64,000 bases of DNA, taken from the NCBI GenBank assembly GCA_949443285.1, contig CASSLW010000001.1, positions 137,093-201,092 of the forward strand, in the 5' to 3' direction. A program made the translations under genes and the position numbers. Below are positions 48,577-57,299 of the stretch, one piece after another. This DNA is from an uncultured Clostridia bacterium. GTDB taxonomy: Bacteria; Bacillota; Clostridia; TANB77; CAG-508. How positions within the stretch are numbered: position 1 is the stretch's first letter; each line of letters begins with the position of its first letter. The notes under the pieces are model-generated. The model saw nothing but the letters and a program-made list of their open reading frames with translations. It searched no databases and had not been told where the DNA came from.

Positions 48577-48854
48577 TTTCTAATCCCCCATTTTCTTATA
48601 ATAGTTATAGCAAAGGAGCATTTCCCTATAGCATAAAAATAAGCCTTGCAAAAAAATCTTTAAGACTCCTTTGCAAGACTTATATATCTTACTTCGTGTA
48701 AACAATCACTTATTATTGATTGTCCTTTACCGCTTGGAACTTTTCGTTCCTAGATAAACTCTTAATTATGTTTTATATTTTAGCACACTATTTTATTCTT
48801 GTCAAACTGTTTTATTTCTTCTTTTGGCAAATGATTTTATTAACATAATCTTTT

Positions 48855-49262
48855 ATTTTCTATATCTTGACTAAATCTTAATACATATCCATTTGGATCT
48901 TGTACTAAAAATTCTTTACATCCCATTAAAATATCATCTTTTCTATACCAATGTTATTCCATATCTACAAATATTTTATAATTCACTTCTTTTAATTTTC
49001 TATATATATCATCTATGTTAGTTACATCTATTTGAAAATTAATTCCTACTCCAAGTGGATATTCTAGCTTTCCTGTTGACCATTTATTATCTTCTTTATT
49101 AATTTCCTGTATCATAAGTTGCACATTTTCAAGTTGCAAAAAGGCAAATTTATCTTCTTTTCTATCATACACTATATGAAATCCAATTAGTTCAATATAA
49201 AAATGTAGGCTATCATCTAGATTAAAAACATCAAATTCTGGCAATATTTGATTCCATTTCAT
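48855..49262 (-). pseudogene. VOC/glyoxalase family paralog interrupted by an in-frame TAA at 48954-48956
   Basis: Co-linear with 43488-43910. The copy-1 codon GAA (E103) is TAA here. The downstream frame still encodes HWYRKDDILMGCKEFLVQDPNGYVLRFSQDIENKRLC. Confidence 0.65.
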
Positions 49263-50995: not shown

Positions 50996-51133
50996 ATAAA
51001 AACCTCCTAAAATTTCTCTTTTTCATACCTTAATATTATACCATAAAATGCCTAAATTTACTATAGTTTTGCCTAAAATTTCCAATACTACCTACTACTC
51101 TTATTATATCTAATTTATCCCATTAATTTTTAT

Positions 51134-52132
51134 TTATGAAAAATATATTATCTCATTATTTGGAAAATACTTACTCATCAAATCTCTAAAAAAAGCTTCG
51201 CCTTCCTGCCTTACAAACTGATTATAAGTATATTTTCCCTTTCCTCTCACTGTCATTATTTCTTTATTATATAAATCTATAGAATTAGGAAAAGCTTCAC
51301 TATTTATCGCTTTATGAATATAACTATATGTCATAAATATGAACTCAAAAAACACTTTCTTTTTTGCTTTTTCAGTTAATAATTCATTAATCTCTTCAAA
51401 CAATTTCCCATATAATAATTTCCAATTATCTATCAAAATTATAGGCGCAACCAATATTCCTACTTCATAGTTAGCTTCCACCAATTTATTAATTGCTTCG
51501 ATCCTTTGTCTTAACCTTGACGTACCAAATTCAAATTTGTTTATTATTTCTTCGGGATTGATGCTCATTCTTATAATTATTTTCCCCTGATGATTAACAT
51601 TTAAAATTGAATCAACCATATCAAATTTAGTCGGAAATGTAAGTTTTCCTTTCTTTGAATTTCTAAAATTCTCTATTGTCCATACCAAATTATTTGTTAT
51701 AGTATTTTCTAATATTAAATCGCTGTTACTTCCAATTTCAAATACATAGTCTTCTTCTGCACTGTTTGCAGTTTTTATTATTTTGTTCAACATTTGCTCT
51801 CTGTTAACAAATAGCCTTAAGTAAGCACATTTATTATAGTTACATACTAAATAACAATACATGCACATAGCTGTACATCCCGAAGATGTGTATGGCACTA
51901 AAAAATTTGATATTTTATAATTAGGAACGTATTTATGCGTTTTTCTTGTTCCAATGATTAGATTTCTTTTCATTTTTGGAAATTCTGAATTCTCTTTTTT
52001 TCTCATTTCTTCAATGTTGTTGTGGTCATCAATTATCGTTTTAGGAACATCTTTGTATTTTTCTAATAATTCTTTTCCTAATTCATAGTTTTCAACTTCT
52101 TGCTCGTAATATATTTTTTCGGGTATAAACAT
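51134..52132 (-). CDS. splB: Spore photoproduct lyase-family radical SAM protein (SplB-like)
   Basis: CTAMCMYC (Cx3Cx2C) at an SplB-like position and overall SPL family similarity. 332 aa. Confidence 0.6.
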   Translation of the reverse strand: MFIPEKIYYEQEVENYELGKELLEKYKDVPKTIIDDHNNIEEMRKKENSEFPKMKRNLIIGTRKTHKYVPNYKISNFLVPYTSSGCTAMCMYCYLVCNYNKCAYLRLFVNREQMLNKIIKTANSAEEDYVFEIGSNSDLILENTITNNLVWTIENFRNSKKGKLTFPTKFDMVDSILNVNHQGKIIIRMSINPEEIINKFEFGTSRLRQRIEAINKLVEANYEVGILVAPIILIDNWKLLYGKLFEEINELLTEKAKKKVFFEFIFMTYSYIHKAINSEAFPNSIDLYNKEIMTVRGKGKYTYNQFVRQEGEAFFRDLMSKYFPNNEIIYFS

Positions 52133-53581: not shown

Positions 53582-55312
53582 TTATTGTTTCAACCTTAAA
53601 TATCCAAGTTCTTCCCAAACATTATAAGCAAGATTTAACCTAAACAACAACGTAGGCTTAGCACCAGCTCTATTTTTATCGACAACACAAGCATAATACC
53701 TAACATCAGGGTCATCATACTTCTTCAAATCAAAAAACTTAGTATCAACTTCATTTAAAGAATACTCATAATTTTGCAAAGTATCCCTATTAATCTGTTT
53801 AATCAAGCACAATGTATCTAAAACTTCTTTTACAGTTCTGCTTACAGCTAAATCATTTACGTTCAAGTTTACTGGTAAAGTATTACTCTCAGCTAACTGT
53901 AAAGTTGAGCATATAAACATATTAAAGTTCTGTGCTAAATTTGAAAGTATTGTAGCAGTCTTCTTCAATTCCTCACCAACACCAATATTAGCAGTATCAG
54001 TCTTCAACGTATCATAAAATACATACTCAATTTGCTCTTTGTAATAATAGTTCATTATTACTTTCTTTAGCTCATCATTTGTATGGTCTGTTATATTAAT
54101 AAAATAAATTGAATTTTTTATTTCTTTATTTGCCCAATTTGTTATTTCTATTGTCTCATTAAATTCTGTTGATTCTTCAGATAATCTTTTTACAAATTCT
54201 TTTTGAGTTTCTTTTTCTCTTCGCAAAATAAAACCATCTTCATCTACTTCTACATTTTTCTTATTATCTGGTCTAAACTTGAACTCTAAAAGTTCTCCTT
54301 CAGTTTTACTTATTTTATGCCCATGTAACTCTTGAATTGCCTTATTGTTTATTATTGTAGTAATCAAGCAAAGTCTCATTTTCTCTTCTGACATCTCGTT
54401 AGAAATAACAAGCACTTTTTTCTTATGTACTAAAGCTGTATGTGCAGCTAAATCTGTTGTAAACCTACTTTTACCAGCATTTGAAGGCATTGCATATGCC
54501 ATTGTTTCCCCTTTTCTTATTCCCTTAAACACATCTGTTAATGTTGGAAATGGCAATGGTAAACCATTTCTTAAATTATTATCACCTTTTTTTAGAAACT
54601 CTGTAAGGTCTTGGCTTAGTACTGCTCTTTTAAATTTCTCAGTATCATTTACTTGTATAACTGCATCTTCAACTTCTTCTACTGACATTTTATCATATAA
54701 TTTATAGTCAATTATTTCTATTACTTTGTCCTGGATACTTTGTATTGGAATAGCTAGATAACTTTTTCTTAATACAAATAACTTGCTAAGCTCTATATAC
54801 ACTTTTTCCATATTATAGTTTTCGTCACGCATTTCTCTTTTTAATTCACTTTTTAGCTTAAAAGATTGCTCTGTATCTTTTGCAAAATTATATCCTTTTT
54901 TTGCAGCCTCAGAGCTATACGCCCCACCTTCTGTAAATAAAATACTTTTGTATATATTTTCTAAATCTGCATCTTCAAAATAAAAATTTTCACGTAGGAA
55001 ATAAAATTTCACTATTAATTTAGGGTTTAAAAGTAATAAACCTATATACTCACGTTCTAGCTCTTTATTACTTAATTTCTTAGGATAAATTCCTACCATC
55101 TCTTCTTTTTTCTCATTAACTTTCGGAGCATTCAAAATCTCTTTTTCGTTCTCTTCCCTTTGATTAACTATTTCTTCAAGCTTTTTTAACGCTTCAATAT
55201 AATTTTTATTGGATATATATTCCTTTACTTCTTCAACAGCATCTATATTCCATTCATTTATTGGTATTTGATTTAAAAGCTCTTGTATCTTTTCTTTAGT
55301 CTCTTCATTCAT
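53582..55312 (-). CDS. DnaB-like helicase (RecA-fold C-domain) with atypical N- and C-terminal extensions
   Basis: AMPSNAGKSRFT Walker A, VLVISNEMS, and a DnaB-N-like EREYIGLLLLNP. 576 aa. No phage structural genes are nearby. Confidence 0.55.
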   Translation of the reverse strand: MNEETKEKIQELLNQIPINEWNIDAVEEVKEYISNKNYIEALKKLEEIVNQREENEKEILNAPKVNEKKEEMVGIYPKKLSNKELEREYIGLLLLNPKLIVKFYFLRENFYFEDADLENIYKSILFTEGGAYSSEAAKKGYNFAKDTEQSFKLKSELKREMRDENYNMEKVYIELSKLFVLRKSYLAIPIQSIQDKVIEIIDYKLYDKMSVEEVEDAVIQVNDTEKFKRAVLSQDLTEFLKKGDNNLRNGLPLPFPTLTDVFKGIRKGETMAYAMPSNAGKSRFTTDLAAHTALVHKKKVLVISNEMSEEKMRLCLITTIINNKAIQELHGHKISKTEGELLEFKFRPDNKKNVEVDEDGFILRREKETQKEFVKRLSEESTEFNETIEITNWANKEIKNSIYFINITDHTNDELKKVIMNYYYKEQIEYVFYDTLKTDTANIGVGEELKKTATILSNLAQNFNMFICSTLQLAESNTLPVNLNVNDLAVSRTVKEVLDTLCLIKQINRDTLQNYEYSLNEVDTKFFDLKKYDDPDVRYYACVVDKNRAGAKPTLLFRLNLAYNVWEELGYLRLKQ

Positions 55313-55407
55313 GTTCCAACTTCATCCCTTTCTTTTGCATTAATTATATACTTACAAATTATTTTTATCAATAGATTTTTTATAAAATTTGTGGTATGAT
55401 AGACTTA

Positions 55408-55500
55408 TGCCAATGGGGACGGACCTTTTTGGCAATAAATTGCCAATAGGGACGGTGCTTTCTGGCAATAAATTGCCAAAAAGGTCCGTCCCCAGTGGCA
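55408..55500. repeat. GC-rich palindromic intergenic element, copy C (GGACC subtype, duplicated inner module)
   Basis: TGCCAATGGGGACGGACC-TTTT-TGGCAATAAATTGCCA-ATAGGGACGGTGCTTTC-TGGCAATAAATTGCCA-AAAA-GGTCCGTCCCCAGTGGCA. It lies between a TG-TATGAT promoter-like motif and the rqcH start, so it is probably in the 5' UTR. Confidence 0.6.
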
Positions 55501-55518
55501 AAAAAGGAGAGATAAGAA

Positions 55519-57236
55519 TGGCATTTGATGGAATTGTTACAAAAGCTATTGCTTCTGAGCTGCAACAGCTTTCAGGGGCAAGGATTGATAAGATTTTTCA
55601 ACCTAATTCAAATAATGTAGTGTTAGGTTTTTATTTGGCTGGTACAAATTATGCGCTAAATATTTGTACTAATTCGCCTAATTATAGAGTTCATTTAACT
55701 ACGCATCCAAGACCTAATCCTAAGGTTGCACCTAATTTTTGTATGGTTCTACGTAAGCATTTGCTTGGCTTACATATAAAAAATATAATTACAAATAATT
55801 TGGAAAGGATTGTAACTATTGAGTTTGAAGGGTTCGATGATGTTGATGATGTTATTTGTAAAAAATTGATTGTTGAATTAATGGGAAAACATTGTAATGT
55901 TATTTTATTGGATGATGATAATACAATTATAGATAGTTTAAGGCACATAAATAATGAAAATACTTCACGTATTATTGTGCCACATATAAAATATACTTAT
56001 CCTCAACCTACAAAGCAAAACTTTTTAGAATGTGTTGATTTTAAAGATTTTGAAGACGCTATTTTATCAAGTGATGAAAATGATATTTCTACTGCTATTT
56101 CAAATACTTTTAATGGCATTAGTAAAAGTTATATTGATTTTATAATTAGCAAACTTCATACCAACAACCTAAAAGACATATATGATTATTTAGAGAAAAC
56201 AATTTCAAAAACAGAAGCTCAGACTTTAAATTTTAAACAATTTGAAAATGATTATTTTTTAGTTTCAGATAGTAATACTGATACTGATAATTTTGCTTTA
56301 AACTTTTTTATTGATGATTTTTATTATGAAAAAGAGGCCAGCGAAGATTTGAAATCATATAGAAATAGCATTTTAAAGCTAATTTTATCTACACTAAAAA
56401 AGTACAATAAAAGACTTCAAAATATAAATAAAAAATTAGAAGATTGTTCAGATATGGATAAATTCAAATTATATGGCGAATTAATTACTGCTAATTTATA
56501 TAGGATAAAAAATGAAAATTTAAATCAAATTGAATTAGAAAATTATTATGATAATAATAATCTAATAACAATAAAACTAGACCCTGCCTACACCCCAGCA
56601 ATTAACGCTAAAAGATTTTTCAAAAAATATAACAAACTAAAAAATGCACTTGAAATTGTTGGAATTCAAAAAGATGAAACTTTAAAGGAGTTAAATTACA
56701 TTGAAAGTATAGTTTATGAGTTAGAAGTTGCAACTAGTATTGAAGAAATCTCTGATATATACGAAGAGATTTCAGAAAATGTTATTTTTAAATCTCAAAC
56801 TGATAAATATAAAAAGAAAAAAACTACAAAAATAAAGAAGTCATCACTTACAAAAAACAAAGCTGTAAACTTCAATCCAATAAAATATACAATCGATGGC
56901 TATACTCTTTTAGTTGGTAGAAATAATAAAGAAAATGATTATTTAACTTTAAAATACGCTAGAAAAAATGACTTATGGTTCCATACAAAGGATATTCATG
57001 GAAGTCATGCAATTTTGGTTTTAAATAATGTTACTTCTTCCCCTTCTGATGAAGTTTTGACAAAATGTGCTGAAATTGCTGCCTTTCACAGTAAAGCTAG
57101 GTTGTCTTCTAATGTTCCTGTGGATTTTTGCGAAGTTCGCTTTGTTAAAAAGCCTAATGGCGCAAAACCTGGTATGGTTATTTATACAAATAATTCTACT
57201 TTGTATGTTTGTCCTAATGGGGACGTTTCCATTTAA
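55519..57236 (+). CDS. rqcH: Ribosome quality control factor RqcH (NFACT/FbpA family)
   Basis: MAFDGIVTKAIASELQQLSGARIDKIFQP NFACT-N signature and a C-terminal DUF814/NFACT-R. ATG at 55519. The upstream 43 codons of the track ORF are repeat-derived and were rejected. Confidence 0.75.
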
Positions 57237-57290
57237 GACAAAATGTCCAAAAAGAAACGTCCCAAATGGACATTTTGTCCAATTTGGGAC
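57213..57290. repeat. GC-rich palindromic element, copy D (GTTTCC subtype), overlapping the last 8 codons of rqcH
   Basis: CCTAATGGGGACGTTTCC-ATTTAA-GACAAAATGTC-CAAAAA-GAAACGTCCCAAATGGACATTTTGTCCA-ATTTGGGACAC. The left arm encodes ...PNGDVSI-stop. Confidence 0.6.
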
Positions 57291-57299
57291 ACATCTATT

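What the first reader, a model, noticed from the sequence alone, without database searches (positions are those of the whole stretch)
55408..55500. New-looking family of GC-rich dispersed palindromic elements (core ATGGGGACG), in two co-varying subtypes
There are four copies in 64 kb: A 2881-2942, B 7776-7833, C 55408-55500 and D 57213-57290. Each has inverted arms of the form YCAATGGGGACG(G/T)(A/T)(C/T)CC / GG(A/T)(A/C)CGTCCCCA(A/T)TGG flanking a short inner palindrome. The arm variant co-varies with the inner palindrome: GACGTTTCC goes with TGGACA..TGTCCA (copies A and D), and GACGGACC goes with TGGCA(A/G)..TGCCA (copies B and C). Because the inner palindrome is also complementary to the outer arm ends, alternative hairpins are possible. 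Copy C carries a tandemly duplicated inner module. Three copies start at or overlap a stop codon (mgtC-like, gerQ-like, rqcH; copy D encodes the last 7 residues of RqcH), and copy C is in the rqcH 5' UTR. This resembles REP/BOX/RUP-type elements or structured 3'-UTR stabiliser-terminators, but I do not recognise the motif. The elements stand out strongly against the AT-rich background.
Basis: seen in the sequence. Interest (0 to 1): 0.7.

Follow-up and report, generated by a model that had tools for sequence, protein, structure and literature searches.

The report
REP-like hairpin repeats with a Y1 transposase
The four GC-rich palindromes are real copies of a dispersed REP/REPIN-like repeat built from 29-nt hairpin units, and in related genomes the same units flank a single-copy HUH tyrosine transposase gene, so this is a new family of a known kind of bacterial mobile DNA rather than a new kind of element.

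Summary
The window has four loci (A 2881-2942, B 7772-7833, C 55407-55501, D 57210-57291) made of 8 intact and 2 decayed or partial copies of one 29-nt unit: a 6-bp stem X/X' of variable sequence around a 17-nt loop with the core (T)GGGGACG. Units sit 4 nt apart (33-nt period) as inverted doublets or triplets.

Relatives differ at the rqcH sites. They have 0, 1, 2 or 3 units upstream, and copy D is present only in the window lineage. Short-read assemblies break inside the elements.

The same unit geometry recurs in many phyla, with full covariation in the stem. In 6 of 7 related AT-rich Clostridia lineages, and in four further metagenome loci, units in inverted orientation flank a Y1/HUH transposase gene. 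In six AT-rich lineages sampled by protein that gene sits in fixed synteny (dnaB-gene-tilS). The enzyme is closest to the published TIRYT / TnpA-Y1 subclass 2.1 group, and its best structural match is 4ER8, TnpA-REP. The loop sequence changes with enzyme lineage.

I conclude this is a REPIN-like family served by a TIRYT-type transposase: a new member of a known kind. No transposase gene was retrieved from the window's own species, and catalysis and mobility are inferred.

The parts
2881..2942 (.). Copy A: inverted doublet U-4nt-rcU. Units lie at 2879-2911(+) and 2912-2944(-) in model coordinates. Stem is TGTCCA/TGGACA and the loop is YTGGGGACGTTTCYWWW. It sits between the mgtC stop (2943) and the cysE start (2848), both on the - strand.
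   Evidence: -41/-47 kcal/mol, z about -9 to -10; 37.6 and 39.2 bits. Logan contigs L129, L130 and L132 end inside it.
7772..7833 (.). Copy B: inverted doublet with a decayed left unit (7770-7802+, core GGGAATG) and an intact right unit (7803-7835-). Stem is TCTGCCA/TGGCAGA and the loop contains GGGGACGGTCC. It ends 4 nt from the stop of ORF 7838-8230(-).
   Evidence: -32 kcal/mol; 42.7 bits; left unit 9.8 bits, E 5.6. It is also present in L125 and L126.
55407..55501 (.). Copy C: triplet U-U'-rcU (55405-55437+, 55438-55470+, 55471-55503-). Stems are (A/T)TGCCA/TGGCAA, spacers are TAAA, and loops contain GGGGACGGACC / AGGGACGGTGC. It lies between the divergent genes 53582-55312(-) and rqcH (ATG at 55518) and ends 8 nt before the rqcH ribosome-binding site.
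   Evidence: -65 kcal/mol, z -12; 42.1, 40.9 and 45 bits. The orthologous site holds 0, 1 or 2 units in L137, L133 and L134. Logan contigs L001-L004 all start inside it.
57210..57291 (.). Copy D: U-rcU (57209-57241+, 57242-57274-) plus a partial third unit (about 57275-57291+). Stem is TGTCC(T/A)/TGGACA and the loop contains GGGGACGTTTC. The first unit encodes the last 8 codons and the stop of rqcH (CPNGDVSI*).
   Evidence: (25.5 and 38.6 bits). It is absent downstream of rqcH in L133, L134 and L137, which carry unrelated small hairpins and different RqcH C-termini.

Best explanation
The four elements are members of a REP/REPIN-like family of short non-autonomous repeats.

Anatomy. The building block is a 29-nt unit U: a 6-bp stem whose sequence is free but must be self-complementary, enclosing a 17-nt loop with the conserved core (T)GGGGACG(G/T). 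Units are strung together 4 nt apart. The usual form is U followed by its reverse complement, so a doublet can fold either as two small stem-loops or as one long hairpin.

Proposed mechanism. The family is maintained by a single-copy, vertically inherited Y1/HUH tyrosine transposase of the TIRYT / TnpA-Y1 subclass 2.1 type. This enzyme has an N-terminal TnpA-REP-like nuclease fold and a C-terminal helical, HTH-like domain. By analogy with TnpA-REP and IS200/IS605 TnpA, it would recognise the unit as a hairpin in single-stranded DNA (for example at replication forks). It would read the loop sequence specifically and the stem by shape, then cut and rejoin the strand to excise and insert units without target duplications. 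Unit number at a site would also change through recombination or slippage between 33-nt repeats.

Shown here:
- the unit anatomy and its covariation;
- dispersal, and gain and loss between close relatives;
- the physical association of inverted units with the Y1 gene;
- the fixed synteny of that gene;
- co-variation of enzyme lineage with loop sequence;
- the enzyme's fold and catalytic motifs.

Inferred:
- that the window's own genome carries the enzyme;
- that the enzyme binds and cleaves these units, and that the substrate is single-stranded DNA;
- any effect of copies A-D on neighbouring genes, such as mRNA 3'-end stability, the rqcH leader, or the rewritten RqcH C-terminus.
For: **Repeat and structure**
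- establish the repeats and their folding.
- Among GGGGACG sites from a genome scan that put no constraint on the flanks, 34% (101 of 298) have at least 5 of 6 complementary bases in the fixed geometry X6-N2-core-N8-X'6. The figure is 5.6% when the 3' halves are permuted (33% against 3.4% for perfect stems).
- In 41 units from diverse taxa, all 6 stem pairs change on both sides, while GGGGACG is invariant. Those units were pre-selected for pairing, so this shows stem diversity, not pairing frequency.

**Arrangement**
- 53 of 63 junctions between adjacent units are exactly 4 nt.
- '><' doublets outnumber '<>' by 19 to 2.

**Mobility or turnover**
- The site upstream of rqcH has 0, 1, 2 or 3 units in L137, L133, L134 and the window.
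- Copy D is unique to the window lineage.
- Assemblies break inside copies A and C.

**Enzyme association**
- ORF clustering of pattern-selected loci found a Y1_Tnp gene (PF01797, E 5e-14) directly flanked by units. Examples are L191 (3 U | gene | 3 rcU), L148 and L235.
- In AT-rich relatives retrieved by protein, the arrangements are L260 (U,U | gene | rcU,rcU), L270 and L283, and L294 and L304.
- Six lineages whose enzymes are 48-68% identical to P0121 (the enzyme of locus L192) share the synteny gdpP-rplI-dnaB-gene-tilS-ftsH. L192 itself was seen as dnaB-units-gene in a 1.9-kb fragment.
- Many homologues sit on contigs of about 1.0-1.2 kb, as expected if repeats flank the gene.

**Enzyme class**
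- The HUH motif and the Tyr of YI(H)xNP are invariant.
- The only PDB sequence hit is 4ER8 TnpA-REP.
- The AlphaFold model (pLDDT 89) best matches 4ER8 (E 1.2e-7), followed by IS608 and ISDra2 TnpA.
- BLASTP gives 90-119 bits to most published TIRYTs against 25-57 bits to canonical RAYTs.

**Specificity**
- Lineages P0121, P0136, P0161 and P0172 are flanked by GGGGACG-loop units.
- Lineages P0221, P0212 and P0315 are flanked by units of the same geometry with loop GTTCCGGGTT.
Against: - No Y1 gene lies in the 64-kb window.
Its presence there is therefore an extrapolation from the clade.
- The enzymes score below NCBIfam's cut-off for 'REP-associated tyrosine transposase' (51-65 bits against 80).
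- The units lack the GT[AG]G tag of classical REPs.
- The core matches the published TIRYT repeat consensus GGGG[AT][CG]A[CG] at only 7 of 8 positions.
- No target motif or excision footprint could be defined.
- Only four loci in one window were counted, so genome-wide copy number is unknown.
- A published survey reported no REP-like sequences next to subclass 2.1 genes. Either this clade is an exception or the survey's search missed units of this shape.
Confidence: 0.78

Rival explanations
1. The units are chiefly binding sites for a domesticated protein, either the HTH domain of the Y1 protein or a host factor. They would serve chromosome or transcript organisation and spread and change in number mainly through recombination and slippage, not through transposition by the Y1 enzyme.
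For: - The enzyme gene is single-copy, syntenic and vertically inherited.
- Unit number varies in situ at one site, from 0 to 3.
- Tandem arrays have a strict 33-nt period.
- In-frame arrays are tolerated inside tilS.
- The enzyme has a C-terminal helical/HTH-like domain.
Against: - The same units appear at unrelated loci (A, B, C, D). Copy D is a lineage-specific gain into a site that holds different sequence in relatives. That needs a dispersal mechanism.
- The catalytic HUH and Tyr residues are invariant across a deep radiation.
Confidence: 0.1
2. The elements are locally evolved intrinsic terminators or mRNA 3'-end stabiliser hairpins, and resemble each other through convergence.
For: - Three of the four lie at gene 3' ends.
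- The hairpins are strong.
- Copy A on the - strand and copy B are followed by short T runs.
- Sub-hairpins of copy D pass the terminator scan.
Against: - The 17-nt loop sequence and the geometry are shared at unrelated loci and across phyla.
- Copy C is upstream of rqcH and is followed by an A run.
- The terminator scan does not call A, B or C.
- Units flank a transposase gene and occur in frame inside tilS.
Confidence: 0.03
3. The elements are MITEs left by a DDE-type insertion sequence, with terminal inverted repeats and target-site duplications.
For: They have inverted-repeat structure, small size and an intergenic location.
Against: - There are no direct repeats at the ends, and no conserved flank beyond A/T richness.
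- Solo units and direct tandem arrays exist.
- The only recurrently adjacent gene is a Y1/HUH transposase, not a DDE enzyme.
Confidence: 0.03
4. The elements encode a structured regulatory RNA, such as a riboswitch or small RNA, that acts in cis.
For: The stem covaries around a conserved loop, which is the usual signature of functional RNA. Copy C sits in a leader.
Against: - Units occur in both orientations relative to genes, as symmetric doublets and as tandem arrays.
- Rfam gives nothing at gathering thresholds. The only sub-threshold matches are to eukaryotic miRNA-precursor models, which any long hairpin would hit.
- The same covariation is expected for a single-stranded DNA hairpin recognised by an HUH enzyme.
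Confidence: 0.04

Closest known systems
TIRtrons: TIR repeats with TIRYT enzymes (Di Nocera et al. 2013, PMC3733652), equated with TnpA-Y1 subclass 2.1 (Quentin et al. 2018, PMC6006769)
   Same: - The enzyme aligns from residue 1 with most published TIRYTs at 90-119 bits, against 25-57 bits for canonical RAYTs.
- It has a C-terminal extension with HTH character.
- The gene is flanked by inverted repeats that begin with GGGG and resemble GGGG[AT][CG]A[CG].
- The repeats are dispersed as single, dimeric or clustered copies.
   Different: - The core GGGGACG[GT] departs from the published consensus at position 7.
- Here the repeat is a defined 29-nt stem-loop unit with a covarying stem and a 33-nt period.
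- The host is an uncultured AT-rich Clostridia clade. The Di Nocera paper never uses 'Clostridi' or 'Firmicutes' in its text, although its TIRYT alignment includes an entry 'dau 2153' that I take, from memory, to be the Firmicute Desulforudis audaxviator.
- The gene is fixed between dnaB and tilS.
- The 2018 survey found no REP-like structures next to subclass 2.1 genes.
- I could not see the published TIR sequences (Figure 9 is not held), so identity of the repeat architecture is untested.
REP / BIME / REPIN elements with RAYT (TnpA-REP) enzymes (Nunvar 2010; Bertels & Rainey 2011, PMC3116915; Ton-Hoang 2012; structure 4ER8)
   Same: - Short extragenic palindromic units, mostly as inverted doublets that fold into a long hairpin.
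- Clusters with alternating or repeated orientation.
- A preference for gene 3' ends.
- A single-copy, vertically inherited Y1/HUH gene flanked by its own repeats.
- One repeat family per enzyme lineage.
- The best structural match of the enzyme is 4ER8.
   Different: - There is no GT[AG]G tag.
- The conserved sequence lies in a large loop rather than beside a conserved stem.
- The enzyme is outside the canonical RAYT model (below the NF047646 cut-off) and carries an extra C-terminal domain.
- Bertels et al. 2017 tie REPINs only to RAYT groups 2 and 3 of Proteobacteria.
CGTC-tagged REPs (Di Nocera et al. 2013)
   Same: - The reverse complement of the core contains CGTC.
- Stems often end in CCA.
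- Loops between adjacent unit stems are 4 nt.
- Head-to-head dimers predominate.
   Different: - In the published families CGTC directly precedes an 8-9-bp stem with a 4-5-nt loop, and no transposase is associated.
- Here CGTC is inside a 17-nt loop, 5 nt from a 6-bp stem, and a Y1 gene is associated.
IS200/IS605 ends (IS608, ISDra2)
   Same: The enzyme has an HUH/Y1 fold. Recognition of hairpins in single-stranded DNA is the proposed mode of action.
   Different: The repeats here are not ends of a multi-copy insertion sequence. The gene is single-copy and syntenic, and no tnpB is present.

Membership tests
REP/REPIN-RAYT system | Short palindromic unit repeated in extragenic DNA, typically as inverted doublets able to form a long hairpin | tested here: met
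   There are 4 loci and 8 intact units in the window. The hairpins have z scores of -5 to -12. '><' doublets predominate.
REP/REPIN-RAYT system | Conserved GT[AG]G tetranucleotide at the 5' end of the palindrome | tested here: not met
   No GTAG or GTGG tag is present. The invariant block is GGGGACG inside the loop.
REP/REPIN-RAYT system | Single-copy Y1/HUH transposase gene flanked by the same repeats in inverted orientation | tested here: met
   Met in relatives: L191, L148, L235, L260, L270, L283, L294 and L304, with fixed synteny. It was not shown for the window's own genome: there is no Y1 ORF in the window, and the look-ups did not reach that species.
REP/REPIN-RAYT system | Enzyme belongs to the curated RAYT family (NCBIfam NF047646 above its cut-off) | tested here: not met
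   NF047646 is the best hit, but at 51-65 bits against a cut-off of 80.
TIRYT / TnpA-Y1 subclass 2.1 | HUH motif and catalytic tyrosine on a TnpA-REP-like fold | tested here: met
   N-H-x-H-L/I-L and the Y of YIHxNP are invariant in 30 sequences. Foldseek's best hit is 4ER8 at E 1.2e-7.
TIRYT / TnpA-Y1 subclass 2.1 | Sequence closer to published TIRYTs than to RAYTs | tested here: met
   Best hits to published TIRYTs score 90-119 bits (lowest TIRYT scores 40-87 bits), against 25-57 bits for RAYTs, in all five query proteins (reference sequences).
TIRYT / TnpA-Y1 subclass 2.1 | C-terminal extension with a helix-turn-helix domain | tested here: inconclusive
   The predicted domain at residues 182-245 is helical with high confidence. 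Pfam HTH_24 scores E 1.5e-5 in the L235 protein, but only weak HTH hits (E 0.009-0.3) appear in the others.
TIRYT / TnpA-Y1 subclass 2.1 | Flanking inverted repeats carrying GGGG[AT][CG]A[CG] | tested here: inconclusive
   The flanks are inverted and carry GGGGACG[GT], which matches 7 of 8 positions. One enzyme sub-lineage has GTTCCGGGTT instead. The published repeat sequences could not be inspected.
CGTC-tagged REP | Terminal CGTC directly followed by an 8-9-bp stem, a 4-5-nt loop and a CCA tail | tested here: not met
   CGTC lies within the 17-nt loop and the stems are 6 bp (searches compared with the description).
MITE of a DDE insertion sequence | Terminal inverted repeats bounded by a target-site duplication | tested here: not met
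   No direct repeats flank A-D. No flank is conserved across 191 clusters.
Intrinsic terminator | GC-rich stem-loop followed immediately by a T tract on the transcribed strand | tested here: not met
   The scan does not call A, B or C, and calls only sub-hairpins of D. Copy C is followed by an A run.
Any Rfam RNA family | Score at or above the family's gathering threshold | tested here: not met
   There are 0 matches in the whole window. Only sub-threshold matches to miRNA-precursor models appear on copy C, and none on A or B.

The most novel reading that the evidence does not exclude
The GGGGACG-loop hairpin units may be the long-missing REPIN-like partners of the large TnpA-Y1 subclass 2.1 (TIRYT) group, a group for which a published survey reported no REP-like sequences. 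On this reading they form a pan-bacterial superfamily (Clostridia, Bacilli, Coriobacteriia, Bacteroidota, Myxococcota and others). The enzyme would read a conserved loop displayed on a free-sequence stem. Enzyme and loop would co-evolve. The pair would be inherited vertically at a fixed housekeeping locus (dnaB-tilS) in a gut Clostridia clade, and units would even be carried in frame as a variable peptide insert in the essential tilS gene.
Probability: 0.4. Interest if true: 0.6.

Novelty: new member of a known kind. Interest (0 to 1): 0.42.

Why it matters
REPIN-RAYT systems have been studied almost only in Proteobacteria, as examples of mobile DNA that persists through vertical inheritance. 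This finding would place a comparable system in uncultured, AT-rich gut Clostridia, and apparently in many other phyla.

It is tied to a transposase subclass whose DNA partners are poorly defined. The stem-free, loop-conserved unit and the enzyme/loop co-variation give a directly testable recognition code.

There are also practical consequences. These units break short-read assemblies. They rewrite gene ends, as with the RqcH C-terminus. They place very stable hairpins in leaders and 3' regions.

Tried and rejected
1. My only genome-contig scan used TGGGGACGN{20,50}CGTCCCCA. It turned out to be useful for the cross-phylum unit analysis.
2. BLASTN of copy A against plasmids and phages found no match. 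The unit pattern gave one chance-like hit in IMG/VR. The elements therefore do not look plasmid- or phage-borne.
3. A literature search by sequence string found nothing relevant.
4. ORF clustering of the first 120 loci showed no shared neighbour beyond common families. The Y1 gene emerged only from the second, unit-specific set.
Eight went on transposase homologues in the hope of reaching the window's own species, and none came from GCA_948853545.1, GCA_948485965.1 or GCA_948617325.1.
6. I considered a sigma-54 promoter reading of TGGCA-N-TGCCA. The spacing is off by one and the stem sequence varies between families.
7. I considered CsrA-type GGA loops, LexA/CtsR/Rex boxes, attC sites, invertons and Tn3-type ends from memory. 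I dropped them because the stem is not conserved, both orientations occur, or the geometry does not fit. None of these was formally tested.
8. I looked for exact insertion boundaries or a target motif from filled and empty sites. They could not be resolved because the flanking intergenic DNA is itself diverged.

Full report
**1. Observation**

GGGGACG occurs six times in the window against 0.33 expected, and no shuffle reaches six. The window is about 28% G+C, so the elements stand out. Each folds into a hairpin far more stable than shuffled controls: -32 to -65 kcal/mol, z = -5 to -12, on either strand. Rfam has no match at gathering thresholds anywhere in the window. In permissive mode only sub-threshold matches to eukaryotic miRNA-precursor models appear on copy C, which is what any long hairpin gives.

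**2. Anatomy**

The unit U is 29 nt:
- a 6-nt X;
- a 17-nt loop of the form Y-T-GGGGACG-KWYC-YWWW;
- a 6-nt X' complementary to X.

Copy A is U, 4 nt, then the reverse complement of U. Copy B is the same with a decayed left unit. Copy C is U-U'-rcU. Copy D is U-rcU plus a partial third unit.

I built a covariance model from 60 units of AT-rich genomes; the window's own units were included. Run over the whole window without filters, it recovers exactly these eight intact units (E <= 2e-4), the decayed B unit and the partial D unit, and nothing else below E 0.7.

In 191 distinct clusters from related and metagenomic loci, 53 of 63 junctions between adjacent units are exactly 4 nt. That gives a 33-nt period in all orientations. 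U-then-rcU doublets outnumber the opposite arrangement 19 to 2.

**3. Turnover**

Contigs carrying close homologues of RqcH give the orthologous loci. Upstream of rqcH:
- a relative with 76% identical RqcH has no unit (L137);
- one with 92% has a single unit (L133);
- one with 86% has a doublet (L134);
- the window has three.

Downstream of rqcH none of the three relatives has copy D. They carry unrelated small hairpins and different RqcH C-termini (TPKKKPI*, NPKI*, TPKNNRVE*), whereas the window has CPNGDVSI*, read from the first unit of copy D.

All Logan contigs with the window's exact RqcH start inside copy C. Three of four Logan contigs with the exact MgtC end inside copy A. That is what a multi-copy repeat does to short-read assemblies.

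The species is represented by MAG GCA_948853545.1, which is 98.5% identical over the shared region. Homologues carry the source name 'Clostridia bacterium'.

**4. Wider distribution**

A loose genome-wide pattern returned mostly GC-rich genomes. Even so, many hits share more than the searched 8-mers. They share the same X / loop / X' geometry with entirely different X sequences: TAGTCA in Collinsella, TGAGTCA in Butyrivibrio, TTGTCA and TGTCA in AT-rich Clostridia, GGATAC, CGGCAC, AGAAGC in Rossellomorea, and others.

With the geometry fixed, 101 of 298 distinct sites (34%) have at least 5 of 6 complementary bases, against 5.6% when the 3' halves are permuted. In a set of 41 such units all six stem pairs show changes on both sides, while GGGGACG is invariant. 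This set was chosen for pairing, so it documents stem diversity, not pairing frequency.

The units there occur in several forms:
- solo units;
- inverted doublets, some with 60-190-nt spacers;
- U-U-rcU triplets identical in plan to copy C;
- U-U...rcU-rcU;
- direct tandem arrays of up to seven units.

**5. The partner gene**

I clustered ORFs from the 120 metagenome loci. The only recurrent neighbour with a mobile-DNA function was a Y1/HUH transposase (PF01797, E 5e-14). Units flank it directly:
- L191: three U, the gene, three rcU.
- L148: U, gene, rcU.
- L235: U, U, gene, five rcU.
- L192, an AT-rich genome: dnaB, U, U', gene.

Homologues of the L192 protein form a large radiation in AT-rich Clostridia (611 proteins at E <= 1e-10; 1170 at E <= 1e-40 from a second seed). 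Many sit on contigs of about 1.0-1.2 kb, as expected when both flanks are repeats.

Six lineages sampled by protein, whose enzymes are 48-68% identical to that of L192 (P0121), all lie in the same housekeeping synteny: gdpP-rplI-dnaB-[gene]-tilS-ftsH. The model finds units on both sides in inverted orientation in L260, L270 and L283. Counting L192 (units found upstream only) and L293 (flanks unclear), units flank the gene in 6 of 7 AT-rich lineages.

This is the behaviour described for REP-associated tyrosine transposases: single copy, vertical inheritance, and flanking by their own repeats.

**6. What kind of enzyme**

- The HUH motif and the tyrosine of YIHxNP are invariant.
- NCBIfam's best model is 'REP-associated tyrosine transposase', but below its cut-off (51-65 against 80 bits).
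- The only PDB sequence match is 4ER8, E. coli TnpA-REP bound to a REP hairpin.
- An AlphaFold model (mean pLDDT 89) matches 4ER8 best (E 1.2e-7). IS608 and ISDra2 TnpA follow. The model has an additional confident helical domain at residues 182-245.
- Pfam sees HTH_24 in one member (E 1.5e-5) and weak HTH matches in others.
- Against the sequences printed in Additional file 5 of Di Nocera et al. 2013, the proteins score 90-119 bits to most 'TIRYT' enzymes and 25-57 bits to canonical RAYTs.

Quentin et al. 2018 equate TIRYT with TnpA-Y1 subclass 2.1. They note its C-terminal HTH domains and the flanking-repeat consensus GGGG[AT][CG]A[CG], and they report that no REP-like sequences were found next to these genes. 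The core here, GGGGACG[GT], fits that consensus at 7 of 8 positions.

**7. Specificity**

Lineages P0121, P0136, P0161 and P0172 are flanked by GGGGACG-loop units. Lineages P0221, P0212 and P0315 are flanked by units of identical geometry, and even the same stem TTGCCA, but with the loop WTRGTTCCGGGTTWAAA. The window has none of the latter. Enzyme lineage and loop sequence therefore change together while the stem is free. This is the pattern expected if the enzyme reads the loop sequence and the stem only as a structure.

**8. Mechanism, and what is inferred**

By analogy with TnpA-REP and IS200/IS605 TnpA (established knowledge; structures listed), I propose three steps:
- The enzyme binds the unit as a hairpin in single-stranded DNA, cleaves, and rejoins. 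Units are moved without target duplications.
- Recombination or slippage between 33-nt repeats changes unit number in place.
- Doublets predominate because they are the stable or mobile form, as argued for REPINs.

None of this catalysis was tested. No target motif could be defined.

Effects on neighbouring genes are plausible but untested. These include the 3'-end hairpins after mgtC and ORF 7838-8230, a -65 kcal/mol hairpin 8 nt before the rqcH ribosome-binding site, and the rewritten RqcH C-terminus.

**9. Rivals**

- Locally evolved terminators: ruled out by the shared loop and geometry at unrelated loci and phyla, by copy C's position, and by the terminator scan.
- DDE-type MITEs: ruled out by the lack of target duplications and by solo and tandem units.
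- A structured RNA: unlikely given both orientations, the symmetry and the in-frame coding copies.
- Domesticated binding sites that spread mainly by recombination: not excluded (about 0.1). This reading would still place the elements in the same system.

**10. Verdict**

The elements are a previously undescribed sequence family of a known kind: REP/REPIN-like repeats of a TIRYT-type Y1 transposase. They lie in a taxon and an enzyme subclass where such repeat populations have barely been documented.

The two 'co-varying subtypes' are subfamilies. Other stem/loop combinations occur in relatives.

Interest is moderate. The extension to a cross-phylum superfamily with a readable recognition code is the part worth following up.

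Noticed in passing
L260 3093-3158; L270 3899-3931; L283 3404-3436; L294 about 3590-3740; L304 about 1060-1170 (related loci): The right-hand units flanking the transposase gene lie inside the tilS reading frame, in frame (33 nt = 11 codons), in the loop between the SGGPDS motif and VAHVNH. They are read as about CQKGP(T/S)PVA. Copy number varies: one copy in L270/L283, two in L260, a diverged one in L279, and 4-7 tandem 13-residue repeats (NLSCHLNPEPMAE) in L297/L294. An essential gene therefore carries a variable peptide insert made of repeat units.
   Followed up: partly
L279 2345-2375; L294 2333-2420 and 3239-3350; L304 1-75 (related loci): There is a second unit family with the same 6+17+6 geometry and even the same stem (TTGCCA/TGGCAA, or TCCCCA/TGGGGA), but with loop WTRGTTCCGGGTTWAAA. 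It flanks a diverged sub-lineage of the transposase (P0221, P0212, P0315).
   Followed up: partly
L192 about 1000-1100; L260 about 2030-2146; L270 about 2915-3000; L283 about 2420-2500: A conserved stretch of about 70 nt lies between the left units and the transposase start codon (GGGGATAAAAGAATG ... GTTTTTT.TAGGGAGAAACAT ... AAAGGGGCAAAA). It could be a leader or regulatory element of the transposase gene.
   Followed up: no
window 3888-5267 and 5272-5745 (+): UvrB is split into two adjacent ORFs in different frames (459 aa and 157 aa). The same split appears in the gene calls of all related contigs. It may be a conserved frameshift or a genuine split gene.
   Followed up: no
window 8687-11570: This segment carries an HNH-domain ORF (8691-9596, -) and a 656-aa ORF (9571-11541, -). 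It has no counterpart in the same-species contig L125, which has about 0.7 kb with a Ham1-like gene there instead. It is a strain-variable insertion or replacement.
   Followed up: no
window 34200-34400, 44205-44400, 45895-46090; 43480-43779 vs 48832-49131; 45251-45770 vs 51102-52021: Other, unrelated direct repeats of 60-520 nt at 70-99% identity occur within 34-52 kb, including a hairpin-containing 62-nt repeat (AAAAATAAACTCCTCTCAT...ATGAGGTAGAGTTTATTTTT). They look like duplicated gene ends or terminators of a paralogous gene array.
   Followed up: no
window 34000-42000: This stretch has higher G+C (0.36 against about 0.28 elsewhere).
   Followed up: no
window 2886-2857 (-): The terminal TGGACA of copy A plus a downstream TATTAT gives a 10-of-12 promoter-like match upstream of cysE (2303-2848, -). 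The unit stems TTGCCA and TGGACA resemble -35 boxes, so inserted units could supply promoter halves.
   Followed up: no
L011, L013, L014, L017, L018 and about 40 further Collinsella loci: A very uniform 58-nt doublet family occurs in Collinsella (for example GTAGTCATTGGGGACGTTCTTAAATGACTAGTCGTTTAAGAACGTCCCCAACGACTAC). It has the same unit plan, and many copies are bracketed by GTAG...CTAC.
   Followed up: no
window 53582-55312 (-): A 576-aa protein with only a weak, partial DnaB C-terminal / AAA_25 match lies divergent from rqcH. It is conserved at this position in all relatives, whether or not copy C is present.
   Followed up: no
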